Origin: Azolla caroliniana
Taxonomy: Eukaryota > Plantae > Polypodiophyta
Assembly: GCA_043228905.1 (NCBI GenBank)
Contig: JBHGNT010000015.1
Coordinates: 8,308,001-8,372,000, forward strand
Direction of reading: 5' to 3'
DNA length: 64,000 nucleotides
Both the position numbers and the translations under genes were made by a program. Below, one piece after another: positions 108-62,746 of this stretch. Numbering within the stretch: position 1 is the first letter of the stretch; each line of letters begins with the position of its first letter. The notes under the pieces were generated by a model. It worked only from the letters and a program-made list of their open reading frames with translations. It made no database searches and was not told where the DNA came from.

Positions 108-910
108 TGACAGGAACTACACGTTCCGTTTACTCGACGCTCGGCCACAACCGAGCCTAGAATAAAACACAGAAAAGAAAAGAAAAAACAGGGAATGAAA
201 CACAACACGATAGAGAGAAGAGTACACAGGATGTTTACGTGGAAAACCCAAACTCGGGAAAAACCACGACAGCCCACAGACCGCGAACTATCACTATGTC
301 AGAATGTACAATAAGAAAGCACTGAGGTCATGACCTCGAGCTTGCTATCTTCGCCACAGGCGGCGGTTACAATCAGAGGCAACAACCTCTTCTTCTCTCT
401 CTCTCTCTCTCTGTACACAGTTGCACGCTCTAATCTTGCGCCAACAAGAATGACAACAACACCCTCTAAAGTTTGCCCTAAGTCATATTTATACTAATGT
501 GACTTTTCGTCTATTTACAAACATAGCCCCGATGGACTCTCAGTAAAACATATTTACGGATATGTCCCTTCATCCGGTGAGCACTCCTCACCGGGCTTGC
601 ATCATCCGGCGCTTGCCGGGTACTCTTCATCCGGTTCTCACCGGGTCTTCCGTTTCCGGGTACTCCTCATCCGGTTCTCACCGGGTCTCCACCATCCGGC
701 TCTCCGTAGTCGGGTACTCGTTATCCGGTTCTCACCGGGTCTGCACCATCCGGCTCTCCGTTTCCGGGTACTCGTCATCCGGTTCTCACCGGGTCTTCCG
801 TGGTTGGGTATTCCTCATCCGGTTTCGGTCTCAGCCTATCGGCCTCGACCGAGTTTGCTCATTAGTATTGTTCTTCTCACTTCCCATCCGGAGGGACCGG
901 TTTCCTAATA
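108..910 (-). repeat. Copia 5' LTR with 54-bp CCGG-rich tandem repeats
   Basis: TGACAGGAAC...GAGGGACCGGTTTCCTAATA; homologous to LTRs at 40598, 46711 and 51320. Confidence 0.88.
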
Positions 911-1074
911 TTAGCCACTGATAAAAAATGGGAAATAAGAATGGAGTGGGAAAACATATGGAGTACGATAACGACATATTTGTCGAGCAAGGGTGAATCC
1001 CCCTTGGCTCTTCTTTTGAACCCAAGTCAATGAGACTTTTCTCTTGGAATGTGCAAGGACTTGGTGGGTCCCAT

Positions 1075-1522
1075 TGTTGTCCACAAGAATAGTAACCGAC
1101 GGACAAGAGCGTAGGAATAGGAAATAGTATAAGATTGTAACGCATGTAACGGTTCACGCAGGAAGCATGAATGGCTAAAAAGACCCTGCGTATATAAAGG
1201 GAAGAAAACCTCTGATAAAGGGGGCGTGTAATTTTGGAATGTAAAGAAGCGTATCGTAATAGAATTCTATCTTCTTTGATACCTGTGTATAGCTACGACT
1301 AATCTACTATGTGCCTGTAATACCTAAGAGTGTAGAAGTAAGCAACGTGAGTGTGTAGCCACAGTTAAGGAGTTTGGTTGTAGCCGTCTCCCTTCTACGC
1401 TGCTAGGTTACGGGGTACATTCCCCTACGTATTACGCACAGACGCCACCGTTCGTTGTTTCATAGTCACTTGGAGGTCTAGGTCGAAGGACTGACTGTAG
1501 ACCGTGTTCCTAATCGTTGACA
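1075..1522 (+). repeat. 5' LTR of deleted Gypsy
   Basis: Direct repeat of 3088-3535; TATA-like TATATAAA near 1191. Confidence 0.93.
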
Positions 1523-1684
1523 CTTTTGGCACGCTTGGTGATCTGTGTCTTCTCACAGACGAACAACGACGAATGGATATTTAGCCGCAGACGCCCCAGA
1601 GAACCAACACGACAAGACCGGCCAATCATAAGGTCCTCAACGACCTTAGTACTACCTGTTGTGAACACACCCGTAGCCCCTAGC

Positions 1685-1835
1685 ATGGCTTTTGCCTATC
1701 CCCGCTTTAACTCATATTCGCATGTTCCTCAATGTCTGGAATGCAAACCACATGGCGTAGAGCCTTTCTGAGGCGGTAGCACACCAGTCCAAAATGACGG
1801 AGTTCGGGTTAACATTGGATGGGCTAACGGCCGAA
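1685..1835 (+). pseudogene. gag: gag N-terminal remnant
   Basis: MAFAYPRF../HIRMFLNVWNANHMA*SLSEAVAHQSKMTEFGLTLDG aligns with MPFQYSKY..AHVHAFEQTWEANHVSQ*..SKIAEFGVTLEG of the element at 61490-61670. Confidence 0.75.
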
Positions 1836-1839
1836 AGGC

Positions 1840-3040
1840 AATAAAAACCCTTGAAGAGAAACTTGTTGCGGAGGTAGCACAACACATCCGGACAAAAGAC
1901 GAAAACGCCCAATTACGGGAGGAAGCGAAGAAATCGGAGGCGGCAATCGCGGGACTCCGGACCTTATTGGAGAGAAAGAAGGTATGGTTCGACGAGCAGC
2001 TGGTGGGCGAACAGGAAAGAAGGCATCAACCCGAAATCCGCCTAAACAATGAAATAGGGAAATTAGAAGAGCTCCATGCAAAGGAATCCCAGCTGTGGGT
2101 GGGCCTGAAGACCACGTACGAAGAAGCGGCGGCGGTTAGTCAACAAGAAATTGCAAACCTCAAGAAGTCGGTGGAAGAAGCACGCAACCGTTGCCAGGCC
2201 ATCACAGACAACGTGCGTATCCTTCTACAAACAAATCGGGAGAGGTTCACAACGCAATTGAAAACGGCGCTAGACAAAAGATGGATGGGGTGGGCAACCC
2301 AAGCAGCGGAATTGCACGCTTATCATGCGGACTGGGAGAACTGGCGAAAAGACGGCCGAGGTTTCTAAAAACTCAATGAGGAGAGCATTGCGGCAGTACG
2401 CGAGGACCTAGCACAAGACTATCGCGCACTCGCGGACCAACATTCCGAAGAACTCGCAAAACTCTTAGATGATTTTGGTGAAAGCCAAGAGGAGCTATTT
2501 CACCAGATCACACAAGCCAGCCGCACGCGAATAAATGAGGAATCCATCGCAACGCCAATTCCGGGCACTGCCGAAGACGAGGAACCTCAGGCCGGGTCAC
2601 CAGAAATTACGACGACGGTGGACAGCGTGGAACGCCGAGCGGAGTCCCCCACATTACCAGACAACGAAACCGCTGCCCAAGAGGAACCCCATCTACAGGA
2701 CCCCACGCTATTGGCCGACCACACGGAGAACGTTGCGGACCAAGCGGAACTACAACCCCACTCCTCGGAGCGTACAACGACGGCCGACACCACAGAGGAA
2801 GTGACGGTTGAGACAGAGCCGCGACCGACCGCAAGCACAACGACGGCTGAGCCCAACCCACTAGCCCAAGAAGAGCCCATCGTACCCGGACCGCCCACAC
2901 AGGATGACCGCGACACCAAGAGAAGCCCTCCCGACCAAATAGGGGAACCACACCACGATGGACCTACGGGCCCTACGTCGCCTCCGGATGCGGACACCGT
3001 AGCAGAGCCAAACATTCGGGCCATTTTGGAAGAAGATTAA
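1840..3040 (+). pseudogene. C-terminal half of the Gypsy extra ORF (coiled coil plus acidic/Thr-rich tail), one internal stop
   Basis: WMGWATQAAELHAYHADWENWRKDG and terminal IRAILEED* match WTKWAQNAAELQLLRADVANWRKEG and ILDILDEE* of ORF 53270-55537. Confidence 0.78.
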
Positions 3041-3087
3041 TGGGATGGGTCTGACGTGCCAGGGCACTGTCCCACAGGCGTGCCAGG

Positions 3088-3535
3088 TGTTGACCGCCGA
3101 AATAGTAACCAACGGACACGAGCATAGGAATAGGAAATAGTATAAGATTGTAATGCATGTAACGGTTCACGTAGAAAGCGTGAACGGCTAAAAAGACCCT
3201 GCATATATAAAGGGCAGAAAACCTCTGATAAAGGGGGCGTGTAATTTTGGAATGTAAAGAAGCGTATCGTAATAGAATTCTATCTTCTCTGATACCTTTG
3301 TATAGCTACGGCTAATCTATTGTGTGCCTGTAATACCTGAGAGTGTAGAAGTAAGCAACGTGAGTGTGTAGCCATTGTTAAGGAGTTGGGTTGTAGCTGT
3401 CTCACTTCTACGCTGCTAGGTTATAGGGAACATTCCCCTACGTATTGCGCACAGACGCCACCGTTCGTTGTTTCACAGTCATTTGGAGGTCTAGGTCGAA
3501 GGACTGACTGTAGACCGTGTTCCTAATCGGCAACA
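3088..3535 (+). repeat. 3' LTR of deleted Gypsy
   Basis: Direct repeat of 1075-1522. Confidence 0.93.
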
Positions 3536-6500
3536 CCCATCATCTGCTTGAGAAGCGAATTTTTATGAAGGAATTTGAAGCTGTTAACTTATGTAGGAAG
3601 ATTGATATTTTGCTCTTACAAGAACATCACCTTGGCCGAGAAAGGACATAACTTTTCAAAGACCCGTTGCTAGGGGATTGGCACACATGGTGGGATCCAG
3701 CTCACGGTGTGCTAGAAAGGAGAGGTGGAGTTTGTATTTCGGTGAGAAAATCACCGGATATCGCCATTTTGGATCATGGCATACTGATAGAAGGAAGGGT
3801 CATGTTCTGCTACCTGGAATGAAGGAATGTGAAATTTGGGGTGTTGAATGTCTATGCACCAAATAGTAGTAGTGAGAGGACCTCTTTTTGGAGTGAGCTG
3901 GCAAACAAAATCCCCTCTTATGACAACTGGATAGTACCAGGAGATTTCAACATCATTGAGAGGACTGATGATTGTCTGGGGGCTCACTCGAACTTGTTAC
4001 AAGGAGAGGAGCTTAGAGCATGGGGTTTCTTAATTGCTATGCTTGGAATCAGAGACTCTTGGTATGCTAGTATGGTGGTTGAGGAGAATTCCTTGCGGTT
4101 TTCACGATTTGGTGGGAAGGAGAGTGAAGGATGTCACTCTAGATTGGACCGCATCTATGTCAGCCCCAAAATTGAGGATTGGAGCGGTTGCACATCCATT
4201 CTAGCTGGCTTTACCTCCTCCGATCACCTTCGAGTTTCCTTGACTCTCGATCCTATTCATAAGAAAAGAGTGAGTGCAATTTGAGGATTCCTCCGAAGAT
4301 TTTTGGTATCCAGAAGGTTAAGGATGAAGTGATTAACATCTGGTTAGCATCTCCATCATCCGACGACCCGTTAGAGGTATTAGAGGATAAGATTATTAAT
4401 TCTTCACATGCTCTTCAGAAAGAGGCTAGAGAGGAGCTGGTAAGGTGTCATTCCTAGCTACAACGCCTGAGGAAGGCATTCATCTTAGCTCAAAAGCTTA
4501 CGCAAGTGGACCCACACTGTTCTTGGGCGAAAGATAGACTGCATGAAGCCACAAGGGTGCTGCAGGAGACTAGGCAGCAACGGGAGCAATTCCTCTTCAG
4601 AAAGTCGGCAGCATGGTGGGTTGTCAAAGGAGATAAAGTTAATAGTGAGTTTTTTCTTACCAAGGCTCCAAAACTTAAGGGAAAGCCTATTCTAACTCTT
4701 AAGTGAGAGGATGATTCGGTGACAACTGACCAAGATGAAATCTTGCAAATGACAACGAAGTATTACAGAGACCTTTTAGCTCCAACATTGGCAGAAGCCC
4801 CACCAATTAACTTGATGCATCATGTAGTTGCATGCTCGAAGACCAGGATTGGAGAGGTAGCCAAATCACAGTTGTCAAAGACCATAGAGAAGGAAGAGAT
4901 TGTCGCGGGGTTAGATAGGATTCATAGCAGGGCTTGCACTGGAGTTGACGGCCTTCCCAAAGCCTTCTTCGTGGAATTTTGGGAGCATATTTTTCCTAGT
5001 TTGGAAGCTGGATTCCAAGAAATGTGGAGAACGGGAAGGATGCCGAGCAACTTCAATGAAGGATTGATATACCTGATTCCTAAATCGGAGAAGGTGTCAC
5101 ACAAGATTAGATAGTGGAGGCCCATCACCATTTTAAATCTCATTTATAAAAAATTTGCTAACATACTAGTGCAGAGAGGCAAGCCCTTTCTAGGAGATAT
5201 CATCCAAACCAATCAAACTGGTTTCATGGAGCATCGATCTATTATGGACAATGTGATATTGTTTTGGGAGGCTGTTGCGACAACAAGGGAGACCAATCAA
5301 AACATAGCTTGTCTGATGGTTGACTTCGAGAAAACCTATGATCGAGTGCAATGGTATTTCCTTGAAGAAGTGATGAAGGTGATTGAGCTACTGTGGGAAT
5401 GGAGGTGTGCTGCTCAAGCCTTATATAAGAATGGCTCAAGTAAGGTGTTGATTGCAGGGAAGAAAGGAGCTAGAATCTCTCTAACTAGATCCATCCGGCA
5501 AGGTTGTCCTCTCACCCCCTTTCTATTCCTCTTTATTACTGAAGCAATGTCTGCCTTTTTGAATAGTCAGACGACAAATTTACATGGTCTTTCAATCCCT
5601 AACACAAGGCAGTCCTTGCTCGACTCGGAGTTCGCGGACGATATGATGCTATACCTCCAAGGTAATGAAGCGAATATGGGGAGGGTACAAATTGCTATCG
5701 AAGCATCGGGAGCCACCATCAATTGGAATAAGTTCAAGGGTTTTTGGATTAGCTCGGAGACCAAGCTGGTATGGAAACCAAATGTTGATTTCAGATGGAT
5801 TGCAAAAGGGGAAGGCACCATATATCTGGGAATGTGGATTGGTGTAGATATCGACAAACGAATACAATCGCAACAAATTCAAAGCAAAATTTGCAACAAA
5901 ATCCGTATCTGGTCAGGGATGAATTTATCATTAGCTGGCAGGATCATAGTAGCTAACCATGTGCTCTTGTCTACTATGTGGCATGCGGTCTCTGTGTGGA
6001 TGTTTGACAGTCATGCTATTCGTATTGTTAAAGCATGTATCAGGGGCTTTCTATGGGATGGGAATAGGAAAGACAACCCAACAGCTAAAAGTATCATGGT
6101 CTACGTTGATTCTTCCCAAAAGTAGGGGGGTTTAGGATTGATCGACCTCGGAGTACAAAGTCAATCATTGCTATGTAAGGTATTGGTAAGGAGCTTGCTG
6201 CCCGGAAATGAGTTAAGAAAAACATTGATTTTTAATGGGAGCATCCTTTGGAGTCCACGACTTGGTGGGCATTGGAAGCCACATAAATCATGGCTATTTT
6301 GTATGGACTTAAAGCTTAGGAGGTCTAATCGGTTGGCTGATCGCACATGTATGTCAATGATGAAGGCGTGGGATATGCTCTGTGGGCATCTTAGCCGTAT
6401 AGGTCCAAATACTAATGCTGAATGGATGCACCAACCCCTATTGTGGAACGAGACCTTAAAGTTGAACAAGGGGAAGATGGTTGGCTAGAGCAAGGGTATG

Positions 6501-7270
6501 TCGTGGGCTATATTGCATGGCGTTGGGATTTAGTCCATGGCAAATTGGATGCAGTTGTCCCCTAGTAATCAGGATAAATTATATGAAGATGCGAGAAAGT
6601 TCAGAAATGGTAGGAAGATGCTTGACCTAGTCAATAAAGTTGTTTACTCTATTCCTATTAGTAATGGGGAAGAGGGTGAATGGTTCAGACAATGTGATGA
6701 TGCAGGAAAAGTTATCAATGCCAAGGGTATAGGAAAGAATGGGAAGATCATCCAATTGGGATTTGTAGTTGTAGGTGCTCGTTGGTCCTCAATTAGAATT
6801 GTGGCACGAGATGGTAAGAAATGGAAGGTGAATCCATCAGTCGATGAGGTTGAGGAGGATTAGATCTTGTATGTAGTTGAAGGCAAGCCACTCGAGTGTT
6901 TAGAATGGGATCCCGCAGAATATACGTGGAGGGACGAACAAGGTAAATCACGTGGTTTCTTTGACTACTCAACTCGCTTGGGGAGACATTTATACTTGCA
7001 TCGTGAGAAGTGTGTCAACAAATGGACCCATGTAGTTGTCGATTCAGTCTTTGTGGATAAAACTAGGAGTAGGATATGGAACTCATCCCTCCCCGAGAGG
7101 GTCAAGGTGTTTTTTTTGCCTAATCACCCATCGGGCTGTTCCAACCGGAGAGTGGTTGGGGAAAAGGGGTGGTATGAGTAATTGCAAGGTCTATGGAGAA
7201 AATTTGGAGGACATCACCCATTGTTTATGGAGCTGCTCGCGAGCCCAAGAAGTTTGGATGAGGAGCTTAA

Positions 7271-21222: not shown

Positions 21223-21807
21223 GGGAGTATGTTATGTACACATAACGTTGGTGAGGGTAGGTCACTAATATTTACATTAGTGAAGGGTATGTTCACTATT
21301 ATTAAAAAGGGGACTAATGATTGGATAGAATGAATGATATGTGCATGCACTATCATGATTTAGACAACCAATGAATAGAGAGCCTTTTAGAAAGGCACAT
21401 CTATTCAAGGGGCCTAGGAAAAGGTATAAATATGAGGCTTAGCTACCCTCATAGAGGGGTGAAAGCATGCGAGTGGAAACAATTAGCTATGTCCTTGACA
21501 TAGCTAATTAGCTATGCAAAAAGCTACCATTGATAAATAGTCATTTTAGTAAAAAGCCATCATTAATAAATTAAGTATGCAAAAAACTACCATTGAAAAT
21601 ACTAGAGTGTTTTAATTACATATGTAAATGAGTGCCATAAATGTGCAACATAAATTGATGTGTGCACCATAAATGTGTACCATAAATTATATATCGAATT
21701 CCTAGGTCCATTATGCATGATCCTTTGCCACATCACGTAGGCCATCTCTAGTTGAGTACTGTGGGTTAGTTGCTACCACTGTTGCTAAACCCTATCGAGT
21801 CCACCTG

Positions 21808-22660
21808 CCGCCACTCTACACTGAAGGGCCACTACTGTGCGTTCCAAGCATCATCAAAGAGCTGCTCAATCTGACGGGGTTCTCTTCTCTGTGACACTCT
21901 ACACTCAGGGGCCACTACTGTGCATTCCAAGCATCATCAAAGAGCTGTTCAATCTGACGGGGTTCTCTTCTCTGTGCCACTCTACACTCCGGGGCCATTA
22001 CTGTGCGTTCCAAGCATCATCAAAGAGCTGTTCAATCTGAGGGGGTTCTCTTCTCTGTGCCACTCTACACTCAGGGGCCATTACTGTGCGTTCCAAGCAT
22101 CATCAAAGAGCTGTTCAATCTGAGGGGGTTCTCTTCTCTGTGCCACTCTACACTCAAGGGCCGCTGCTGTGCGTTCCAAGCATCATCAAAGAGCTGTTCA
22201 ATCTGACGGGGTTCTCTTCTCTTTGCCACTCTACACTCAGGGGTTGCTACTGTGCGTTCCAAGCATAATCAAAGAGCTATTCAATCTGACGGGGTTCTCT
22301 TCTCTTTTCCACTCTCACTCAGGGGCCGCTACTGTGCGTTTCAAGCATCATTGGTAACTGTTCAATCTGACGGGGTTCTCTTCTCTTTTCCACTCTCACT
22401 CAGGGGCCGCTACTGTGCGTTTCAAGCATCATTGGTAACTGTTCAATCTGACGGGGTTCTCTTCTCTATGCCACTCTATTCTCAAGTGCCTTCTATGTGC
22501 GTTTCAAGCATCATCGGTAACTGTTCAATCTGACGGGGTTCTCTCCTCCATTGCCATCATTCTATACTCAGTTGCCACTACTGTCCAGTCCCGGATTGCT
22601 TCCACATTTCGATTTGACGGAGTTCACTCATCCAACGGCAACATTCTACACTCAGTTGTT
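21808..22660. repeat. 83-bp minisatellite, about 9-10 copies decaying rightward
   Basis: Unit CCACTCTACACTCAGGGGCCACTACTGTGCGTTCCAAGCATCATCAAAGAGCTGTTCAATCTGACGGGGTTCTC..; ORF-track starts are spaced 83 bp apart. Confidence 0.92.
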
Positions 22661-22879
22661 GCCATTGGTCGGTCTTGGATCGCCTCCTCAATTGTTGGAT
22701 CCAACAGAGTGAAATCCTCTACTGTTCGGTCTTGGATTGCAATAACTTTTCTGTCTATTGATTATCTTGTGTATTGTTGTGTCTAATCTTGTGTATTGTG
22801 TGGAATATTTTTGTGTATTGTTGTTGCCCATAGCCATCTTTAATACTTGTTTTTTTTTCTGGAAATTTAGGGTTTTAAC

Positions 22880-23628
22880 ATGTCTAGCCAAATGGAAGGG
22901 GAAGAAGGGTGTTTAGAATTACCCCTCAATGATCATAAGGATAGGGATGATGTTATCAGGACACAACAAGCCATACGAAACTATTGGGCAGAAAAAAGAA
23001 GGAAACATCGTCAATTGTTGAAGGATACGAAAGCCACACTCAGTAAGGTAAGGATAGTTTAGCTGAGAATGTAAGTAATGCGACTACCATCATAGAGAGA
23101 AAGGTTGTAGACTATTTCAATGTTCAAACCAAGCACATCAGCAATGAAGAAAAGAAGGTAGTACTTTATGGAATACGTAATGATCCATCGATAAAGGACT
23201 TAGTTGATTGTGATGGTCTTAATGCAAACATATCATCTATTTTAGTAAATAATCTTCGTAATAGTTTCGTATCCATGAGCAGGTCAGAAGATGATCTTGT
23301 CTTAAAAAGGTCTAGTCTAATGATGTTACTTAATAGTGATGTTGACGATATAAACATCAGTGAGCTATCTAAGGTAATTGGTGTTAGTAGAAAAACAGTG
23401 TACAATACAATGAACCGTATAATTTCCTCGGGTGAAGGAACTAGTCTACTAAAGCTAACTACAAGATGTAAGCCAATGACACCCATAACATTTGAAATCA
23501 AGGATGTAATCACAATGTTTTGGACTAATGAGAGTAGGGTTTCACCCAATAAAAAGGATTTATGCAGGAAACGTGTTGGAAGAAATCAATACGAGGAGCA
23601 TCCCATTCATCTTCTTGATGTACCTCAG
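22880..23628 (+). pseudogene. Transposase N-terminal exon (HTH-like plus FWxxESRVSPNKKD motif)
   Basis: ISELSKVIGVSRKTVY HTH-like segment; FWTNESRVSPNKKDLCRKRVG..HPIHLL motif recalled from Sola2-type transposases; donor CAG|GTATTT at 23628. Confidence 0.65.
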
Positions 23629-23669
23629 GTATTTACATTTATCTCAACATTTGTTTTGACTCTACTCGG

Positions 23670-24950
23670 AAAGTTAATTAGCTCAGTTAGCAGAAAAGCT
23701 AATTAGCTTATCAGTTACATTTACCTCAGTTAGCTACTAGGATCGCTACTACATAGGTAACTAGCTACTCTCAATAGTTACTACCATGATAGCTAATTAG
23801 CTATTCTCAATAGCTAATTTAGGTACTACCAGATAATTAGCTGTACTGCTAGCTAGTTAGCTATCATGGTAGCTAGTTAGCTATTTCGTTATTACCAGCT
23901 AATTAGCTACTAGGAAAGCTAATTAGCTACCATGATAGCTAATTAGCTACTATGATAGCTACTACATAGGTAACTGGCTACTCTCAATAGCTACTACCAT
24001 GATAGCTAATTAGTTAGGATAGCTAATTAGCCACCATTATAGCTAATTAGCTACTAGACCAGCTAATTAGCTACCATGATAGCTAATTAGTTACTAGGAC
24101 AGCTAATTAGCCACCGTGATAGCTAATTAGCTACCATGATAGCTAATTAGCTACCATGATAGCTAATTAGCTACCATGATAGCTAATTAGCTACCATGAT
24201 AGCTAATTAGTTACTAGGAAAGCTAATCAGCCACCATTATAGCTAATTAGCTACTAGACCAGCTAATTAGCTACCACGATAGCTAATTAGCTACTAGACC
24301 AGCTAATTAGCTACCATGATAGCTAATTAGTTACTAGGAAAGCTAATTAGCCACCATGATAGCTAATTAGCTACTAGACAAGCTAATTAGCTACCATGAT
24401 AGCTAATTAGTTACTAGGAAAGCTAATTAGCCACCATGATAGCTAATTAGCTACTAGAGCAGCTAATTAGCTACTAGGACAACTAATTAGCTACTAGGAC
24501 AGCTAATTAGCTACCATGATAGCTAATTAGCTACTACGACAGCTAATTAGCTACCATGATAGCTAATTAGCTACTACGACAGCTAATTAGCTACCATGAT
24601 AGCTAATTAGCTACTAGGACAACCAATTAGCTACTAGGACAGCTAATTAGCTACCATGATAGCTAATTAGCTCTACGACAGCTAATTAGCTACCATGATA
24701 GCTAATTAGCTACTAGAATAGCTAATTAGCTACTACAATAGCTAATTAGCTACCATGATAGCTAATTAGCTACTACGACAGCTAATTAGCTACCATGATA
24801 GCTAATTAGCTACTAGGACAACCAATTAGCTACTAGGACAGCTAATTAGCTACCATGATAGCTAATTAGCTACTAGAATAGCTAACTAGCTACTAGAATA
24901 GCTAACTAGCTACTAGAATAGCTAATTAGCTACTAGGATAGTTAGCTAGT
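23670..24950. repeat. Array of the palindrome (T)AGCTAATTAGCT(A), mostly 20-bp period
   Basis: e.g. (AGCTAATTAGCTACCATGAT)n at 24121-24210. Confidence 0.95.
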
Positions 24951-24961
24951 TACGAGAATAA

Positions 24962-25228
24962 CAGTGTGCAAGGCAGAATATTGTAGATGCATGGGGAAAT
25001 TTTGTATCTGCCGGGACATTCTACATCGAAGGCATTTTTTATGCAAAACTAGATGACTACGAATATGTGTACAGGCTGTTAGAAGACAAACCAGCGGCGT
25101 ATATGTACTCTCATTTGGTCAGATGCATCAACGTCCCAATGTCAGAATACAATAGCTGCTCCGGTTTATACACTGTTGGTGCTAATGTGTATGAATGTAT
25201 TTACAATAGTATGCCATGGAATTTGTAG
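24962..25228 (+). pseudogene. Probable transposase C-terminal exon fragment
   Basis: Open frame IVDAWGNFVSAGTFYIEGIFY..YMYSHLV..MPWNL*; no catalytic core is present between this and the N-terminal exon. Confidence 0.55.
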
Positions 25229-25960
25229 CTACAAGTAGCACTTACCATGTTCTCTTGTAAAACAAACATGTATTTCGCGAAAACAGATCAATAAATTCGT
25301 TTGGAATCAATTTCTTGTATACAGTCTGCTTTCTGTGCTTCTTTCTCAATAAAATCATGTCTTTTTTGTTAAGTTTTAAGTTATAAGTTATAGCGAAATA
25401 GTCATCAGTAGCTAATTAGCTGTACAAATGCAGCTAATTAGCTGTACAAATGTATTTACAATAGTATGCCATGGAATTTGTAGCTACAAGTAGCACTTAC
25501 CATGTTCTCTTGTAAAACAAACATGTATTTCGCGAAAACAGATCAATAAATTCATTTGGAATCAATTTCTTGTATACAGTCTGCTTTCTGTGCTTCTTTC
25601 TCAATAAAATCATGTCTTTTTTGTTAAGTTTTAAGTTATAAGTTATAGCGAAATAGTCATCAGTAGCTAATTAGCTGTACAAATGCAGCTAATTAGCTGT
25701 ACAAATGTATTTACAATAGTATGCCATGGAATTTGTAGCTACAAGTAGCACTTACCATGTTCTCTTGTAAAACAAACATGTATTTCGCGAAAACAGATCA
25801 ATAAATTCGTTTGGAATCAATTTCTTGTATACAGTCTGCTTTCTGTGCTTCTTTCTCAATAAAATCATGTCTTTTTTGTTAAGTTTTAAGTTATAAGTTA
25901 TAGCGAAATAGTCATCAGTAGCTAATTAGCTGTACAAATGCAGCTAATTAGCTATACAAA
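25196..25960. repeat. 255-bp tandem triplication
   Basis: TGTATTTACAATAGTATGCC at 25196, 25451 and 25706; near-identical copies. Confidence 0.92.
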
Positions 25961-26244
25961 TGCAGCTAATTAGCTGTCAATAGCTAAATAGTCATCAATA
26001 GAATGAAATCAACAATCTGCAACATATTCCTCAAATTACACAGTAGATAAGTACAGTGGGAACAAGTAATTAAATTCTTCATTGAATAATGTCATCTCTT
26101 TACATATTTATAAATTACCATTGGAAATGTCTACAAATCTCCTATAAACAGCTAAGCTCTTGCTAGTCAGTGGAACGAGTCTACATATATTATCCGCATA
26201 TTGAGCTCGGTATGGAGTCCACAACCATGCACCTAGTTGGCAGC

Positions 26245-31519: not shown

Positions 31520-32164
31520 ACGTTGTCATGAAGAAAACCGGCTCTTACACAGATGGACGCGTGAATTGATATTTTGATATTGATTCATAAATGGATCGGC
31601 TGATGTAAATACTAAGTAGTACACATTTATTAGGGGATTGTGTGTATCTCTGTCAGAAGAGATAGGGAATAAAGCGATTTGACTAGGGAAGAAGGGCACC
31701 CCCTTTTGGGAACTATTTAAGGAGAGAAGGAAGAGAAATCATGGCGCGTTGGCGAGGACGAAGTGCTACTGCAGAACCGAGTGCCGAGCTCTCTCTCCTC
31801 CGATCGTCGTTCTCTGCGGGTATCGGGAGTTCGCTGCCTTTGCTTCGTGGACAGCCCGTGTGCTTCCAGTAGAGTCTCTCTCCTCCCCCTTTCCCCTTTT
31901 GTTTCTTCGAGTCGTGTGGCTATCGTCGGTGTGCATGAGTAGGACCCCGTGTCGGGTCCTTTACCGGGTTGCTGGTTGTAAGCTAGTGACTATAGTAATC
32001 GGATTACTATTTTCCTTGCTCTTAATCTCTCTCTGTGTACTTGCGTCTCTCTCTCTCTCCTTGGTTCGAGACCCCTGTGGTCCCGCCTCTTTCTACACGC
32101 ACGCGTGTAACAACGCGACATATTTGGTGAACCCGACGTGAACAAGCAGCAAAGGAGTCGAAAG

Positions 32165-51319: not shown

Positions 51320-51384
51320 TGTTGGGAGACAGGTCCCTCCGGATGGGAAGGGAGAAGAACACTGCCGACGAACAGACTACGGAG

Positions 51385-51995: not shown

Positions 51996-53269
51996 AAGAG
52001 ACATATTTGTAAATATGTTTCTGAGAGCCCATTGTGGCTATATTTGTAAATAACCGAAAAGTCATATTAGTATAAATATGACTTAGGGCAAACTAATATT
52101 ATGTTGTTGTTATTCTTCCTTGTTGGTGCAAGAAGAAGAGAGAGTGCGTAACTGTACAGAGTGAGAGAGAGAGACGAGGTCATTGCCTCTGTTGTAACCG
52201 CCGCCTGTGGCGAAGATTTGTGAGCACGAGGTTGGTGCCTCAGTGAACTCACTGTTTTGTACATTCATACATAGTGACAGTTTGCAGCCTGTGGGCTGCC
52301 GTGGTTTTTCCCCTAGCTTGGGGTTTTCCACGTTAACCTCCTGTGTACCATTTCTCCTCTTTGTGTTGTGTTCTATTTCCCGTTTTCTGTGTATGAAAAG
52401 AATCTCGGTTGTGGCCGAGCGTTGGACATAAGGAACGACAAGTTCCCGTCAAGTGGTATCAGAGCGAAACGACACAGAAAATGGACGAATCGTTTGGCGG
52501 CATGTTCAAGCTCACCGGCTCCAACTAATCAGTGTGGAAGTCGAAGATGAGGGACATGCTCGTGGTTAAAGACCTCTGGCTGCCGGTTCAGTTCGGGGAC
52601 AAGAGACCGGACAAAATCGACGCCGCGATATGGGAGGTGATGCAAATGAAGACAACGGCGTACATACAGTGCTTCATCGACATGAGCCTGTACAACAACT
52701 TCAATGAAGAGAGCAAGGCTCATGAGCTCTGGGAGAAGATCGACATAATGTTTCAAAACAAAAATGATGTTAATCAAGTTTCTGTTAACTCTTCGGGCCG
52801 GACAATGGCCTAACACAGGGTGTCTACGGGAGACACTTCACCAAAGGGTGTTACGGCAACCGGATTAGACTTCAACGCCTAATTCGACTTATTTAAGTTA
52901 CTTATTAGGATCGTCTTCATAACACGCGTAAGATATAACAATTAAGACAGGACGGCAATTAACACAGAGATATAACAACGCTTAACCTTTCATTAATTAA
53001 CCGCTAACTATTACATTGTATTCGGGCCTTTAAATAGGTTTCCAGTCTGTATTACAAAACGGTGCCATCCGCACCTGTTCGGGATCGGTCCGGATCCGGA
53101 ACGGCATACCGATTCCGGTCCGTCCGTCCACACTCATAGCTTAATTACAACCACATTCCTATTACTTAATTAGCTCTCCGTTTCCCACTCTGGACTCCTT
53201 TGTCGGCCGGTAACACATGGCACGCCCGTGGGACAGTACCTTGTACGTCGAATCCACAACCGACCCTTG

Positions 53270-56060
53270 CTATTCTTCGTCCAAAATGTCCAGAATGCTT
53301 TGTTCGAGAGGCTCCAATGGTTCATCTGGAAGTGGTTGTTGTTGTTGTTGTTGTTGTTGCGCTGTTGTTGTTTGCTGCGGCGGGTCCGTTGGTGGTTGTT
53401 GCGGCTGCTCCTCCGTTTGTGGCTCTGACACCGGCGTCTCTGTCGTTGCTCCCTGCGTCGTAGTGGTCTCCGGTTGACTGGTTCCCGGCTGGCCCTCAGC
53501 CGCCGACGGTTCCTCATCACTAAGGTTAACCGTTGTCGCTTCCCGTGCTTTTTCTTCCCGTACCCGGGACCGCTCGTAGCTTTCAAACTGGATTTGAGCG
53601 TCCAGCCTATCATCGTCCAGCTGAGCTACGAGCTGCTTGACCTGCGCCAGCTGTTCATCTGCCAGGACTTGGAAGTCGTCGGCCAGCTCGTCCCGTATGG
53701 CGGTGAAGTCCTCAGAAGTCAACGTATAACAATCATCTCCTTCCTTCCGCCAGTTTGCCACATCCGCCCGTAGCAACTGGAGTTCCGCCGCGTTTTGTGC
53801 CCACTTTGTCCACCATTTCACGGAGCTTTCATCAATCAAGTGTTTCGTCTGATTCAGCCATGCCCGGAGGATGGACTGAATCCGGCTCGTTCCCAATTGC
53901 GATTTGGTTTCCGCCGCTTGCCGTTCCTCCTTCAGTTGTTTGATGATTTTAACGTTGTCCTCTGCCTGCGCCTTGTAATGCATCAATTGCCTTTCATATG
54001 TGCTTTGTAATTTCTGCAATACTGTTGACGCTCCTCTCTCTTTGTCTTCCTGCTGCTGCATCTGGAGCTCCATCCGGACCTTCTCCGCCTCTTCCAAGCG
54101 TCTTGTATTTTCTGCTCGTTCGTCGGTGATCGCCGTCGCGGCCCGATCAACTGCCTGCTGGAGCTCGGCCATCCGTTCTTTATGCTCCGTTTCCAGCCGT
54201 TTGTAGTCTCGGTGCAGGTGCTCAAAATCATCCGTCTTTTGCTTGAGTCGTGCGTTGATCTGACGACGGGCCCAGTCCTCGCGGTCCTTCTGCTGGCGGA
54301 GCTCTTCCTTTAGCCATTCAATCTCTGTTTCCGCCGTTTTCTGCAGCTTGTCCCTTTCCTGCAGCACTTTGTCTTTCTCCTCCTTTAGCCGGTCGTACGC
54401 TTGATGGCCTTTCCGGAGGCTCTCCTCTGCCTGGCAGAGGTTCTCAGCAGTCTTCTTTACTTCGGCTTCGGCCGCCGTCTTCAATTCTCGTTCACGGCTC
54501 CTTAGCGCTTCTTGTGCGGCAAGTTCCTCTCTTAATTCCGCAAGCTCCCGAGCTTGCGCTGCATCTCTCGCCGAAACGGTTTCCGTTGTCAAGGTCTTAT
54601 TGCTATGCACAGGTCGTTCCGTTTCTTTATTCTGTACACTTACCGGAGTCACCGGTGATTGGATCCGTATTTTGGCCATCTCTGTCGTGACCTGATCCAA
54701 ATCTTTTTCAAGGCACCGGATTCTGGACCGGGCCGTCTCTAGTTGTTCGGTTGTGACGAGCAACCGTTCGCTTTGCGCTCTTTCTTCCGCCTCTATATAC
54801 CCCACTGCTCCGGCTATCTGTTCGCCTATCCACCGGAGCCACAAGCTACCGGCGCCTTGTTGTGCTTGCACGGAGGTTTGATAGATGGGCTCACTTGTAG
54901 AGGGGTGGTCCCACCTGGTTGCTCCGAGTTGCAGCTCCTTTTCCGCCCGTGGACCATCCTGTTGTCCTGGTTCCCCTTGCGCTTCCTCTTGGCTGACCGA
55001 GGGAGGCTGCAGTGACCTTTCCGGCTCTGGCGGGATGGGACTTGCCGGTGTTGCCGGTGGTGCCGGGTCTTTTGTTTCTGGTGCCATCTGCACCGGTTCC
55101 GGTTCCGGTTCTGGTTCCTTCCTTGGCGTGGGAGTCTCAGTCTGGGGAGCCGGTGTTCCCTCCGTCTGAGGGTCTGAACGTTTCCCGGCTGTCTCAACGG
55201 TCCTTGCCGACGACCGTCGCTGGAGGTGCTCCATAGGCTCCTCCTCTATTTCCTCCTCCTGAGCTCCGGCATTGAGTTTTGCCGCCAAGGGGTCCACTTC
55301 TTGATTCACGGGTCGGCGGAGTGTGACCTTTACGGGCCGTGCCGGTGGTTTCTCATGCGCCTCCGTTGGGCGCTTCCGGCTTCCGCTTCCTGCTGCCGCC
55401 TGTTCTGCATCCACCGCCTTTCCCTTACTGGCCTTAGAGGCCAACAGGTGTTGCCGTTTGGAAGCCGTCCTTGGGGTGCCGTCCGGCACTCTTCCTCGCT
55501 TCTTGGGCTGGACGGTCTGAACGGGTGGCACCAGCAAGGTGAGCCACTGCGTTACGACGTGCCATATCCTTCGTCCGTCTCAGCCTTCTTTGCCGTCTTT
55601 GCCTCTGATGATCTTGATCGCCACACACAACCCGTCTGCAATCAATACCGGCCAATCCACCTTGATCCCTTCATAGGTGGCGATGATCATCCCTGCCTAG
55701 TTCTCCGGCATGACAGGTGGTCTAGGGTATACGTGGTTGTATTCATGGAGCACACGAGCAATTTCGCGGACCAGCATATCTCCGCCGCCCTGTGTCTGGT
55801 AGCCCTTGCTGGCTAGAGAGTACTCACCAAAATACCTGATGAGTTGCTCCGGGGTTGGATTGTCGATCGTGAGTATGCCTCCCTCCGGAAGGCCAGTTAA
55901 CGCTCGAATCGCCTGTGCCGTTATGACCTCTGTATCAATTTCCTTGATCACTTTGTCGGCTTCTTTGTGTGGCGGTACTTCCATCATCATCAAGAAGCCC
56001 TCGAGCCCGTGTTGCTTCAGCCATGTCTTGGCGGCTTCCGACAGCGTTTGCGGGTCCATT
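53270..56060 (-). pseudogene. Gypsy E extra ORF (globular N-terminus, Pro-rich linker, long coiled coil, Q/T-rich tail); stop at 55697 and frameshift near 55540
   Basis: ORFs 55697-56281 and 53270-55537 lie downstream of integrase on the sense strand; homolog at 1840-3040. Confidence 0.78.
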
Positions 56061-56432
56061 TCTGTGTCGGGGTCGGACTGCGGTGACGAGGATGGATGGT
56101 GATGAGAGTGGGGTTGAGAAAGAGAGAGTTCAGAAGGCGGGGGTTCTCTGTGCGCAGGTTCTCGTCTGATGATCTTGCAGCGTTTCGGTGCTTCTGTGCT
56201 CCTGGGTTCGCGAAAATAGAGGGTCTCTACGCGCAATGGTTTTTGTCTGTGCATTCTGGCGCCTATTTCGAGTTTGTGCATGTCGCGTACTTAAAATAGC
56301 ATTATGTCCTATGGTGGCGCTTTAAATTCCCACTACGTACCTTTTCGCTCCACGCTCTTTCATCCATTCATTCCTCGCTTTTGCATGATTGTTTTTTTTT
56401 TTTTTTCTGTTATTATTATTATTAGTGTGACG

Positions 56433-59400
56433 TCACATGTCCGTTGGTTCTCTCGGACCCTTACCGGCCTCATTCTCTCTGGTTCCCGGCTTGCCGTCTC
56501 TGCCGTCTTGGTGGTTGCCGTCAGTCCTTTCCTCAAACGGGTTCTCTGGCATTGGTCCTCTATATGCCTTTAACCGGAATCCGTTGACCCATTTGCCCAG
56601 CACTTCGCCGGCAAGTGTCCCCAACTGGTAGGACCCATTATACTCCCATGTTAGCCAATATGGTCCGGTCCATCGAAACCTTAGTTTACCCGGCAATTTG
56701 CCCATCCGGGTTTGGAATACTAACACCGGTTTGCCGATTGCGAACATTTTTTCGTTACCTTTCCTGTGTCGGTCGACGAATGCTTTCCGTCGTCGTTGCT
56801 CCAATTCTAAATGTAGGATGCTGGCCAACCGTTGTTCCTCCAGCTCACACAACGTTGTCAACCTTATTGTCTCCGACTCCTTCTCGTTCAGCCGTTCTCG
56901 TAGCTGGATCCATAAGCTAGGTACTTGAAATTCTACCGGCATGACCGCCTCGAGTCCGAACGCCAACCGGAACGGTGTTGTTCGAATGCTCGTTTTGTAT
57001 GCCGTCCGGTATGCCCAAAGCGCGCTATGTAGCTTTGTGTCCCAATCCGTCCGGTTTTCGTTGACGATCTTCCGAAGGATGTTCTGGAGCGTCTTGTTTG
57101 TTGATTCCGCTAATCCGTCCGCCTGTGGATAGTAAGGTGTGCTTCGTTTGTGGACCACGGCATAGAAGGTCGTTAGGCTTTCCACTACTTGTCCGAGAAA
57201 GTGCCCCCCTTGGTCACTTATCAATTCAATGGGGCATCCGTAACGGCACCAGATGTACTCATATAGAAACTTTGTCGTTGACGCAGCGGTGTTATCCCGT
57301 AACGTTTTGGCCTCCACCCATTTCGTGCAGTAATCCGTAGCAACGATAACGTACCGATTACCCGTTCTCATTGCCGGTGGCTTGAACGGTCCTAAAAAGT
57401 CCAGCCCCCACTTTTGGAATGGCTCGAGTGGTAGTACCGGCTGGTGTGGCATACGAGCCTGCTCCGTTGGTTGGCCCATTCTCTGGCATAGGTCACATTC
57501 TTTTGCGTACCGTACCGCATCTCTTAATGTCGTTGGCCACCATAGGCCACTTTGCCATATTTTTCTGGCCGTCGCATCTCCAGCATAGTGACCTCCGGCA
57601 ACTCCGCAGTGGGCTTCCCTCAGTATCAGTTCCTTTTCATCACTGCGCACCGCCCGTCTCCATATGCCGTCAGCACCCTTGTGGTACAGTGTGTCTTGCA
57701 GTAAGCAGAAATGTCGGCTTTGTACCGCCAGGCGTTTCCGTTCGTCCCGGTTCAGCTCTTCCGGAGGCAGTCCTGTGCTCAGAAACTGGTGCATATTTGT
57801 GAGCCACTTGTCTTCCTGGGCCACTGTCTCATTTGCTGCCGTCTCCGTAGTGACTCGAAATAGCTCCGCATCCGGAAACTCATCCGGTACTCCGTCACCC
57901 GTCTATCCGGACTCCAATCGGCTTAAGTAATCTGCTACGGCATGCTGTATACCGGGTCGGTGGAATATTTCAAACTCGAACTCCTGTAACAATAAGGTCC
58001 ACCGGGCCAATTTGCCGATGAGTGACGCTTTGGACACCAAGTAAAGGAGTGCCAAATGATCTACATGGAAGGAAAACTTCCTTCCCAATAAATAATGCCG
58101 AAACTTTGTCACACTGTAGATCATTCCTAGAGCTTCCCGTTCCGTAGTAGAGTAGTTCCGTTCTGCTTGGGATAGCTTCAGGCTGGCATAGTACACTGGC
58201 CGGTACCACTTTGGTTCCGTAAGCTGCATCAGTACGCTTCCGATTGCGATGTCGGAGGCGTCCACGAACACGTGAAATTCTTTACTCCAATCTGGAGGTT
58301 GTACTACCGGTGCCTGCGACAATAGTACCTTGAGGGCCTTATACGCCCTATCCTCAGTATCGGTCCACTGGAATGGTGTCCGATGTACGGCGGCATGTAA
58401 TGGTGTAGCCAGGTCGGCCAAGTCTCGGAGCATCCGGCTGTGCCACCGGATCTGGCCTAAGAACTGGCTTAACGCCTTTGTCGTTGCCAGCGCCGGTGCT
58501 TCTAATATGGCTTTCACTTTGTCCGGGTTGACTGCAATACCTTCCTGGCTCATGATATGTCCTAATAAAGTTCCACTGGACACGCCAAATACACACTTTG
58601 CCAAATTCAAGCTTAGCCGGTACGCTCTACACTTTTCTAGACAAAGACGGAGGTGCTGAAAATGGTCCTCCTCCCGGCTATAGATGGCGAAATCGTCAAG
58701 GAAAACCTGCATAAAAGCCGGTATATATTCACCGAAGATTTCCATGATGATTCGTTGAAACGTTGCCGGTGCCGTTTTGAGTCTGAACATCATCACCACG
58801 ACCACAAACACCCCCCATTCGGTGACGAATGTCGTTTTCTCTTGGTCGTCGGGGTGCATCCGGATCTGATTATACCCGCTGAATCCGTCTAGGAAGCTAT
58901 AGACCTCGTGGCCGGCGACGGCATCCAACACTCCATCTGTGAACGGAAGTGGAAACGCATCCGTTACCGTAGCCGCATTGAGTTTCCGGTAGTCCACGCA
59001 AACTCGAATTTTTCCGTTCTTCTTCGGTACGACTACGATCGGGCTCAGCCATGTCGCTTTCTTTACCGGACGGATAAAGCCAACTCTTAGCAGTTTGTCG
59101 ATTTCTTCCTTGACCTTGGCAGCATAATTGGGATTCATCCGGTACCGTCTTTGTGCCACTGGTTTTGCGTCCTTGCATAAGTGCACTTGATGCTGGTATA
59201 CATCGAGTCCTCACATGTCTTCGTATGACCAGGCGAATACGTCGCGAAATTCCGTGAGAAGTGTTATCATCGCCGTTTTGTCTCCGGACTTCATCTCCTT
59301 GGCGATGTGCACCAATTTTTCTTCGTCCGTGGTGCCTAAATTCCCCTCTTCCAGTTGCGATGCTTTTACGCGCTGTGAAACGGCCATTTCCCGTTCCAAC

Positions 59401-62260
59401 GCTTCCTGCGCTTGCCGTAACTCCCGGATTGCGTCTTTATCCGGTTCTGCTTCCGCCTCTTCCGGTTGCGGTAAGTACGGTGCTACGGCTTCGGCAATGT
59501 CAATTTCGAAGAGGGGTATGATCTTCGGGTTTTCCTGCAGGTATTGAGCTTCTTCTTCGTCCGCTAACCCTTCGAGCATGTTGACGCATTCCGCATACAA
59601 CGGTGTACATTCCTTGCCAGTGCTCGTCCTTGGTTGTGTTGGTACCCGTACCTTGGCTTTTCCTCGCCGGAAGGTAATTATATTTTTTCGCCAATTCTGT
59701 TTGATATGTGCCGTTTTCAACCATGGCCGCCCCAGCAATAGCGGGTATGCGCCCTGTGCCTGTAATTGTAGCACTATGGCCTAGATGTGAAATGTATGAC
59801 CGCCGACGGTGACTTCTAATTTCCGTATTAATCTTGCCGGCCGTACTGAGCTTGTATCAGCCATCCGCAACCAGAACGGACACGGCTCCCACTCGTGGAT
59901 TCCTAGGTCATCACACATCCGGAGGCTTATTACATTTACCCCAGAGCCTCCATCTATGACTGTGCCGGGAAGTTCTTTCCCTTTTACAATGGCAGTGATT
60001 ACCGGACTGCTGGTGTCTACCACCGTTGGTCCCTCCTCCGGATTCAAGAAGAGTACCGGTGCCGGTGATGGTTCTCCTGCCGTCATGGCCGTCTTCAGTC
60101 CTTCCGTGAATCTTGGCACGAGTTGTAGGAGTCTTCCTAGTGGTAACGTAATCTGGCATTCTTGCAACGCCTGCCATGTCTCGTTCTCGGAGTGACTGCC
60201 GTCGGCAAGCCCTGCGGTGTTCTCCTTTTGCTGCTGTAAGTCTGTGACATTCTGCTCGTTTGCTTTCTTTACCCATTCCGTTGCTTGTTTCCGGATGGTC
60301 TCCTGTGTCTCCCATTCTTTGGCCATGCCCTTCGACCTTGTGGTCACCTGCTGCAGGTCTGCCACTTCAGGGACTACCATATTTACCGCCGGTCGTTTTT
60401 CATAGCTCTTCACCGGGCATTGGTTACTATAATGGCCTTCCTGTCGGCAGTAGTAGCAGTAGGCCTTCCGGGTATTGCTAGATTCGGCATTGTCTGTTGT
60501 GCCCGGGACAGGTCCTACGGTACGCGCGGGGTTTTGTACTGGTTGGCTACTTGGAGCTCCTTGTTCCGGATCCCGGGGGTAGCCGCCTTTTTTAAAATGC
60601 CGTTTCTTGTTATAGCTTTTCTTATTACGGTACTCTTGAAGGGGTTGCCCGTTATATCTGTCGTATTCCTCCCGTTGCTGACGATACCCGGGGGAGTGCT
60701 CCCGGTCGTATTGTTCGTATCGTCTATTGTAATCCTGGTATCGATTATGCCGGTCATAGTTCTCTCGCCGGTCTCCGTACCGGACATCATTTTCCCGTTG
60801 ATCGCCATCCCGGACATCATTTTCCCGTCGCTCGCCATACCGGACATCATTTTCCCGTCGCTCGCCATACCGGACATCCTGTGCCGGTCGGTCACGGGCC
60901 ATTCGCCGCCAGCGTTCGTCTTCTTCATCCCGGTTGCTGCGTGGCTCAATTTGTCGGACGGGCGGTGCTTGCCGAGTCAACAGATTATACTCACACCTAT
61001 CCGTCGTATGGCTCTTGGATTGACAGATTACACATTGCGTCCTCATAGTGCATTCTAGAGCCGAGTGTCCGGAGTTCAAGCAGGTTGTGCACTGTATTGC
61101 TTGCCGAAACCGGAGGTCTTCATCGGACGGTAACGCTCGTTGAAGTGCGCCCAGTGTGAGCCAGGAGCTTGTCTTTTCCATCTCTTTCACCCGGTCAATG
61201 ACCTGGTCGATGGTACTTGTGCGGAAATCGATTACCGTGCAAACCGTGCGTAGCCGGAGCGCGTTTAAGAATATCGTCCGTAATTCCTCCTCCGGGGGTG
61301 CACGGGTAAGCTGACTATGCATCCATTGAAACCGGATGACAAATTGGGGAATGCTCTCCCCTGCCTCTTGCCGGATGGTATAAAATAAGCCTACCATTAC
61401 GGTCTATTCCACCTCCTTTTGAAAAAAATGCATGAATTTAGCTTTTAAATCTGCAAAGGTGTTGATGGTAGACGGGTCCTGCGTCCGGCGCCATCTTGCT
61501 GTTGGTCCCTCCAATGTGACGCCAAATTCCGCTATCTTAGAGCGTTCTTCTTCTTCTGGGGTCAGTCATTGGGACACATGGTTGGCTTCCCATGTCTGTT
61601 CAAAGGCGTGCACATGAGCTTCCGCGTCCGGATCATCTCTATACTTGGAGTACTGGAACGGCATGTCGTCGTCCGGTATCGGTGCGCGGGCTGGTAGTGT
61701 TGGTGCTCGTTCCGGAATTTTCTCCGGTGTCGGTGGTCTTTCCCGATTTGATTCCGGTGTCGGTTGTTTCTCTTCCTTTGGTGACGGAGGCCTCTCCTCT
61801 TCGACTTCTGGTGTCGGAGGTCGTTCTTCCTTTGCTGGTTCCGGGGGTTCCAGCGTTAGCACTTCCGGTTCCGGTTCCGGTGTCGGTAAGGTATCCGATC
61901 CTTCGTCCTCCGGTCCGCCCGGGGTTTCGTTGCTGCTACGGTAGTTCGTGTGCACGTTGTATTCCCCTTCGGAGTCCGATTCGTATGCTGAAAAGGCCTC
62001 TGCTTCGCCTTCTCCGTTTGCCAACGCGTGGAGAAGGGATTCGGTTTCCCGGAGGCTGCTTAGGCTGCTGCCGTCGTCCGGCTGCGATGTTTGCTGTAAC
62101 CAGAGGGAGTCCTCTACTACTCTCCGGATTACGTTGGAAAACGAGCGATCCGCTCTAATTTCCTGTGCCGCTTGCTGGAAAGCCTTGCGTCTCCTTTGCC
62201 TTTCGGCAAGGCGTCGAGTTCGATCTGTAACCAGGTCGTGCATTGATCTAGACATCCATC
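56433..62260 (-). pseudogene. gag-pol: Gypsy E gag-pol
   Basis: Three CCHC knuckles; VIDGGSGVN protease; FLDGFSGYNQI..FLDD RT; FVDASD RNase H; HCG..GHY..CDLC and YYPQADGLAE integrase. Confidence 0.92.
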
Positions 62261-62746
62261 CGTGCCGTCGTTCGCTGCAAAAACAGGAATCGTGGTCGCC
62301 AAAAGCTGTGTTAACTCTTTGGGCCGGACAATGGCCTAACACAGGGTGTCTACGGGAGACACTTCACCAAAGGGTGTTACGGCAACCAGATTAGACTTCA
62401 ATGCTTAATTCGACTTAATTAAGTTACTTATTAGGATCGTCTTCATAACACGCGTAAGATATAACAATTAAGACAGGACGGCAATTAACACAGAGATATA
62501 ACAACGCTTAACCTTTCATTAATTAACCGCTAACTATTACAATGTATCCGGGCCTTTAAATAGGTTTCCGGTCTGTATTACAAAACGGTGCCATCCGCAC
62601 CTGTTCGGGATCGGTCCGGATCCGGAACGGCATACCGATTCCGGTCCGTCCGTCCACACTCATAGCTTAATTACAACCACATTCCTATTACTTAATTAGC
62701 TCTCCGTTTCCCACTCTAGACTCCTTTGCCGGCCGGTAACAGTTTC

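What the first reader, a model, noticed from the sequence alone, without database searches (positions are those of the whole stretch)
3053..3087. The same inverted tRNA-like motif in a second, diverged family
Seen: the 2.46-kb element has LTRs with no obvious similarity to E, yet it also lacks a PPT. It has GACGTGCCAGGGCACTGTCCCACAGGCGTGCCA-GG|TGTTG versus GACGTACAAGGTACTGTCCCACGGGCGTGCCA-TG|TGTTA in E, the same motif with the same 2-nt spacing. A small upstream stem covaries (GTGC..GCAC vs GTAC..GTAC). In this element the motif is also complementary to its own 5' PBS (TGGCACGCTTGGTG, 1527-1540), so end-to-end RNA pairing is possible; that pairing is not conserved in E. Inference: conservation across diverged families argues for a functional cis-element rather than a one-off rearrangement.
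Basis: partly seen in the sequence, partly recalled or inferred. Interest (0 to 1): 0.75.

Follow-up and report, generated by a model that had tools for sequence, protein, structure and literature searches.

The report
tRNA site replaces polypurine tract
Two diverged families of plant jumping genes lack the purine-rich signal that normally starts the second DNA strand and carry at that spot a conserved, hairpin-split copy of an arginine tRNA's 3' end, so a second host tRNA likely starts that strand, a route I found in no paper searched.

Summary
Observation confirmed. Element A (1075-3535, non-autonomous, TSD CCCAT) and element E (62741-52783, Ty3/Gypsy, TSD GAAAC) have no PPT; the window's three other LTR elements checked have one. 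A and E share 28 of 33 nt at the junction, against about 54% in the flanks. The motif is larger than reported (3045-3085). It copies the 3' arm of tRNA-Arg(UCU) in two pieces, T-arm and last 18 nt with CCA (one base missing), split by a 4-bp hairpin and ending 2 nt before the LTR. Of 13 metagenome loci found through the extra ORF alone, 12 keep it and none has a PPT. It follows the tRNA, not the PBS: E has a different PBS. Pairing to A's PBS is a by-product of both sites matching one tRNA. Covariation is one pair, not significant. Best reading (0.62): a tRNA anneals to minus-strand DNA and primes the plus strand. This is inferred: no priming data, and the tRNAs compared are prokaryotic stand-ins. 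The scan noted this motif before in at least 11 other places of this genome.

The parts
1070..1074 (+). Target-site duplication CCCAT, left copy (right copy 3536-3540)
1075..1522 (+). Element A 5' LTR (TATA-like word at 1191)
   Evidence: 92.2% identical to 3088-3535
1527..1540 (+). Element A PBS, 4 nt after the LTR; 14-bp duplex (2 G-U) with the 3' end of a tRNA-Arg(UCU) stand-in
1772..3040 (+). Remnant of the 3' extra ORF (in-frame stop at 2366-2368); no gag-pol, so A is non-autonomous
3045..3054 (+). 5' piece of the tRNA copy (T-stem 5' strand and T-loop, about tRNA positions 49-58)
   Evidence: related contigs read C at 3052 in 87-95% of depth
3055..3068 (+). 14-nt insert with a 4-bp hairpin (stem 3056-3059/3064-3067)
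3069..3085 (+). 3' piece of the tRNA copy (positions 59-76 with CCA, one base missing); an inverted PBS on the minus strand
3086..3087 (+). 2-nt spacer before the 3' LTR
3088..3535 (+). Element A 3' LTR
62309..62741 (-). Element E 5' LTR (TSD GAAAC at 62742-62746 and 52778-52782)
62291..62301 (-). Element E PBS, 7 nt after the LTR, different from A's
56433..62363 (-). Element E gag-pol (zinc knuckle, RT, RNase H, integrase; no chromodomain or second RNase H found), broken by stops
53270..56290 (-). Element E 3' extra ORF, sense orientation, no Pfam match
53218..53260 (-). Element E copy of the split tRNA motif (T-arm piece 53260-53248, insert 53247-53235, 3' piece 53234-53218)
52783..53215 (-). 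Element E 3' LTR, 2 nt after the motif

Best explanation
These Ty3/Gypsy elements have no PPT and carry in its place a conserved, hairpin-split copy of the tRNA-Arg(UCU) 3' arm, and a second host tRNA likely anneals to the minus-strand DNA there and primes plus-strand synthesis. Shown: the position, the missing PPT, the conservation and the sequence match. Inferred: once RNase H has cleared the RNA, the minus-strand DNA presents an inverted PBS. The tRNA (or an 18-nt 3' fragment of it) would pair by its last 18 nt, with one base bulged, and by its T-arm across the looped-out DNA hairpin. RT would extend from the CCA, so the plus strand begins 2 nt before TG, the geometry a PPT gives. Speculative: the bulge and the three-way junction may shield or position the tRNA against RNase H until it has primed. 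The site is inherited through the RNA and not recopied from the tRNA, which would explain the fixed missing base.
For: No PPT in A, E or 13 of 13 relatives that reach the LTR. 12 of the 13 keep the motif 2 nt from the LTR; they were found by the extra ORF only. Of 124 loci hit by the motif pattern, 2 overlap a tRNA gene and both are Arg(TCT). E also matches the stand-in in 7 of 7 upstream bases that the pattern did not fix. The 3' piece covers the standard 18-nt PBS span with CCA; the break falls at position 58/59, where a modified A stops RT (numbering and m1A58 recalled). Co-folding gives the two-piece duplex with the hairpin looped out in A, E and L003. The motif is unchanged while the PBS differs between A and E. 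All three family-level differences in A (G>A, T>C, G>A) are wobble-compatible with minus-strand pairing, while A's PBS shows the opposite type, C>T. In A-like contigs loop base 3062 differs in 69-82% of depth and stem bases in under 10%.
Against: No priming was observed. The tRNAs are prokaryotic or phage stand-ins picked with a pattern drawn from the motif, so part of the match and the duplex energies (RNA parameters used for an RNA-DNA hybrid) are circular. The wobble count is 3 of 3 (about p=0.125), depends on the stand-in (with L018, position 3076 is a match), and G>A is also what methylation produces. Covariation is not significant. The 13 loci hold only 10 distinct junctions, all E-like. 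L014 lacks 16 nt of the motif and L002 has 3 mismatches. A tRNA on DNA is an RNase H substrate, and how it would survive is unexplained.
Confidence: 0.62

Rival explanations
1. The element's own RNA at this site is a tRNA-like piece that resists RNase H and primes the plus strand as a non-purine PPT.
For: Same position and spacing as a PPT. The sense RNA of E-like loci can pair the T-stem around the hairpin. Needs no second tRNA.
Against: Folding is not unusual (z -0.06 in A, -0.93 in E, -1.86 and -1.8 in L003 and L006). A breaks the outer T-stem pair, and there is no 5' acceptor strand. Mimicry of shape would not need an exact tRNA-Arg acceptor sequence. The RNA is unfolded in the RNA-DNA hybrid.
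Confidence: 0.2
2. The motif is a structural or packaging signal (for example end-to-end RNA pairing with the PBS), and the plus strand is primed by a cryptic site elsewhere.
For: In A the PBS-motif duplex is -25.4 kcal/mol. Ty3 uses 5' and 3' sites together for tRNA binding (PMC5371799, passages).
Against: In E the duplex is only -12.3, and A's PBS pairs almost as well with E's motif (-22.1), so pairing follows the tRNA. The Ty3 3' site is complementary to the tRNA, whereas this one is identical to it. The left LTR end must be set by a primer at this position.
Confidence: 0.1
3. The motif is a non-functional relic of one old tRNA capture.
For: One origin is likely, since A and E share the extra ORF. 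Most sampled loci are closely related.
Against: Identity is 85% between families whose flanks are at about 54%, and 91-95% against 68-73% among E relatives. The spacing is fixed and there is no PPT to do the job.
Confidence: 0.05

Closest known systems
Canonical Ty3/Gypsy reverse transcription (yeast Ty3; PMC5371799, passages read)
   Same: LTRs, TSD, tRNA PBS after the 5' LTR, gag-PR-RT-RH-INT order; the plus-strand primer site lies just before the 3' LTR; split tRNA-binding sites exist.
   Different: Ty3 primes the plus strand from an RNase H-resistant purine tract. Its bipartite PBS is complementary to the tRNA on the RNA. Here there is no purine tract and the 3' site is identical to the tRNA, so it can bind only on the minus strand.
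Plant non-chromovirus Ty3/Gypsy, OTA/Athila side (Neumann et al. 2019, PMC6317226, passages read)
   Same: No chromodomain and no second RNase H found, a 3' extra ORF in sense orientation, 5-bp TSD, non-Met tRNA PBS.
   Different: The passages read give a PPT as the general rule and describe no 3' tRNA site. The extra ORF has no Athila ORF-1 match. Lineage placement against REXdb was not possible.
Helenus/Ajax/Cassandra TRIMs (Kojima 2024, PMC10886601, passages read)
   Same: Non-autonomous LTR elements that carry small-RNA-derived sequence.
   Different: Their tRNA- or 5S-like sequence lies inside the LTR as a promoter, and they keep PBS and PPT.

Membership tests
Ty3/Gypsy LTR retrotransposon | Two LTRs (TG...CA) and a TSD | tested here: met
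Ty3/Gypsy LTR retrotransposon | RT-RNase H-integrase order | tested here: met
   E. A has no pol; linked through the extra ORF
Ty3/Gypsy LTR retrotransposon | PBS after the 5' LTR | tested here: met
   A: 14-bp duplex with the Arg(TCT) stand-in. E: TGG-initiated site conserved in 5 loci; its tRNA is not identified (4 Arg, 4 Asp, 1 Trp)
Ty3/Gypsy LTR retrotransposon | PPT before the 3' LTR | tested here: not met
Chromovirus | Chromodomain after integrase | tested here: not met
   No Chromo hit in E; found in two other window elements; E lies apart from them in the RT tree
OTA/Tat | Additional archaeal-type RNase H | tested here: not met
   No second RNase H family in the E ORFs scanned
OTA/Athila | 3' extra ORF in sense orientation, no aRH | tested here: met
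OTA/Athila | Groups with Athila in RT/RH/INT phylogeny | not testable with these tools
   No lineage-labelled references; the quick tree puts E nearest two Adiantum nelumboides proteins among the named rows
tRNA gene or tRNA-derived SINE/TRIMp3 | Full tRNA fold or pol III boxes | tested here: not met
   ARAGORN 0 genes in the window; Rfam 0 matches at 2950-3150

The most novel reading that the evidence does not exclude
A whole lineage of plant Ty3/Gypsy elements has replaced the PPT with a second, inverted, two-piece tRNA-binding site and primes both DNA strands with host tRNAs.
Probability: 0.6. Interest if true: 0.86.

Novelty: new variant of a known kind. Interest (0 to 1): 0.72.

Why it matters
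PPT priming of the plus strand is treated as general for LTR retrotransposons and retroviruses (PMC5371799, PMC10886601, PMC6317226; passages). A successful lineage without a PPT would break that rule. It would give a natural system for asking how RT selects, protects and removes its second primer, and it gives a direct test (swap the site and the tRNA). Pipelines that look for a PPT, or that orient elements by the PBS, could miss or invert such elements.

Tried and rejected
No whole genome is held, so copy counts and the host tRNA set were not available. Viral contigs gave no relative of E's RT and no motif match. Rfam and ARAGORN found nothing at the motif. The Neumann supplements held as text (5 files, 17 kB) had no PBS strings; its Additional file 1 table seems not to be among them and may bear on lineage and PBS type. 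A literature search for the PBS string gave 18 unrelated papers. No RNA holder was listed, which says nothing on expression. Run X16 laid nothing. E's primer tRNA was not identified. Loci left out of the junction count: L001 (turns to unrelated sequence before the stop), L009 (junction broken by other sequence, then the contig ends), L012 and L013 (end before the junction). The careful tree did not finish; the quick tree is reported. Rejected: a misplaced LTR boundary (TSD and LTR pairs fix it); the element read backwards (gag-pol, extra ORF and TATA-like words are on the strand used); self-pairing with the PBS as the conserved function. I have a vague, unverified recollection of a Repbase liverwort Gypsy group called Halcyon; two searches found nothing relevant, and three candidate papers were not held.

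Full report
Observation. The quoted 35 nt are at 3053-3087, and the 3' LTR starts at 3088. Element A runs 1075-3535, with 448-bp LTRs at 92.2% identity and TSD CCCAT. Element E runs 62741-52783 on the minus strand, with 433-bp LTRs at 97.7% and TSD GAAAC. The 19-nt core occurs twice in the window, against 0.01 expected. The longest purine run in the 20 nt before the 3' LTR is 3 in both, against 7, 5 and 10 in the three other LTR elements checked. The A and E LTRs do not align better than shuffles (28 vs 22.4+/-2.6), although their first ~13 nt and a TATA-like word are alike.

What the elements are. E encodes zinc knuckle, RT, RNase H and integrase, broken by stops, with no chromodomain or second RNase H found, then a sense extra ORF without a Pfam match. 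A keeps only the 3' part of that extra ORF (E=5.7e-19 against a profile of E's relatives), so it is a non-autonomous member of the same lineage. The extra-ORF domain has 208 clusters at 50% identity. Named RT relatives come from Adiantum, Riccia, Calypogeia and seed plants at 41-57% identity. A quick tree puts E nearest two Adiantum nelumboides proteins among the named rows (SH-aLRT 97), so a fern host is plausible but not shown.

Conservation. A and E share 28 of 33 nt over the motif, against 54% over the first 100 nt of LTR and 55% over the last 100 nt of ORF. Thirteen reach the LTR. Twelve keep the 17-nt core with 0-3 mismatches, L014 has lost 16 nt of it, all 13 have the 2-nt spacer, and none has a PPT. 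They hold 10 distinct junctions, all E-like, so they are not 13 independent tests. Identity to E is 95% in the hairpin insert and 91% in the 3' piece (L014 included), against 73% in the ORF end, 68% in the spacer and 69% in LTR positions 21-160; the T-arm piece is at 78%. In four public runs, summed contig depth at E's motif is 9-18 times that at the ORF end, with loose ends on both sides. None of the 40 listed variants lies in 53204-53252, and 54 more were not shown. This fits sharing by further families, but such depth is no copy number and a similar peak lies inside the LTR.

The motif is a split tRNA 3' arm. A pattern made of motif pieces with a variable gap hit 124 listed viral and prokaryotic loci. 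Two overlap a tRNA gene, and both are Arg(TCT). Against L053, E matches 12 of 13 nt of the T-arm side, then has a 13-nt insert, then 17 of the last 18 nt including CCA with one base missing; A shows the same layout with a 14-nt insert. These tRNAs are stand-ins; the host's were not available. That plant tRNA-Arg(UCU) ends alike is my recollection. Co-folding with the minus strand gives a two-piece duplex with the 4-bp hairpin looped out: -43.6 kcal/mol for A (shuffles -27.4+/-4.1) and -58.1 for E (-26.3+/-3.6), using RNA parameters and partly circular.

tRNA or PBS. A's PBS pairs with the same tRNA over 14 bp with two G-U pairs and keeps the base that the 3' motif lacks. E and five of its relatives have a different PBS but the same motif. 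The PBS-motif duplex is -25.4 in A, -12.3 in E, and -22.1 for A's PBS with E's motif. So the end-to-end pairing in A is a by-product of both sites matching one tRNA.

The hairpin. Over 11 aligned junctions 95.5% of cells pair, but only one pair changes on both sides (127 of 500 shuffles reach that). Better support comes from A-like contigs in three runs: loop base 3062 differs in 69-82% of depth and 3060 in 7-19%, while no stem base exceeds 10%.

Which strand pairs. These contigs read C at 3052 in 87-95% of depth, so the window's T is particular to this copy. The three remaining differences of A from L053 are G>A, T>C and G>A, all tolerated by wobble if the minus strand pairs with the tRNA. 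A's PBS differs by C>T, tolerated if the sense RNA pairs. This is suggestive only (about p=0.125, dependent on the stand-in, confounded by methylation). The sense strand does not fold better than shuffles (z -0.06 to -1.86).

Mechanism. In the canonical scheme an RNase H-resistant PPT just upstream of U3 primes the plus strand (PMC5371799, passages). Here that position holds an inverted PBS. I infer that a second tRNA-Arg(UCU), or its 3' fragment, anneals to minus-strand DNA and primes the plus strand 2 nt before TG (0.62). Rivals: the element's own tRNA-like RNA as primer (0.20), a structural signal with cryptic priming (0.10), a relic (0.05). How a tRNA on DNA escapes RNase H is unexplained.

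Novelty. Nine searches for a precedent (listings seen) found none; one search was swamped by other meanings of PBS. Passages of PMC6317226, PMC5371799, PMC10085805 and PMC10886601 describe PPT priming only. The library lacks most subscription papers and Repbase reports, so absence from print is not established. The scan's own notes report the same motif at 11 other places in this genome, and one weak fungal case. They are unchecked AI notes and are not counted as support; they gave me the lead that the motif extends upstream of the hairpin, which I then tested. Verdict: a real, conserved feature and a new variant of LTR retrotransposon; interest 0.72.

Noticed in passing
window 62302-62308 (-) and 1523-1526 (+): The 5' PBS lies 7 nt (E and five relatives) or 4 nt (A) from the LTR end, longer than the 2 nt at the 3' side; this bears on how integrase or RNase H trims the right end.
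   Followed up: partly
window 53071-53132: A G+C-rich, partly palindromic block in E's LTR, upstream of the TATA-like word, shows a depth peak and loose ends like the motif, so it may be shared between families.
   Followed up: no
window 1080-1087 / 3093-3100 and 1517-1519 / 3530-3532: A's two LTRs differ in clusters at both ends; related contigs suggest both copies drifted at the start (3093 and 3100 are minority letters).
   Followed up: partly
L003, L006, L007, L016, L017: Junction, one LTR, then a PBS (and gag in L007, L016, L017) in a single contig: assembly collapse, tandem copies or one-LTR circles; not resolved.
   Followed up: no
L014:697-745: 16-nt deletion that removes most of the 3' tRNA piece but keeps TGCCA, the spacer and the LTR start.
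   Followed up: partly
window 21700-28400: Satellite arrays (83-nt, 20-nt and 255-nt units; many TAGCTAATTAGCTA-type palindromic words) with an HTH-bearing ORF at 23047-23706.
   Followed up: no
window 584-850, 41034-41354, 47145-47411, 51286-52108: A 54-nt tandem array shared by several copies of a Copia-type family.
   Followed up: no
window 8324-31519 and 32057-36338: A second Gypsy-type family with a very divergent RT (23-25% identity to E, DUF4100), a normal PPT and nested insertions.
   Followed up: partly
window 3540-7200: A is inserted in a degraded element with a LINE-like RT ORF (RVT_1 at 5115-6122).
   Followed up: no
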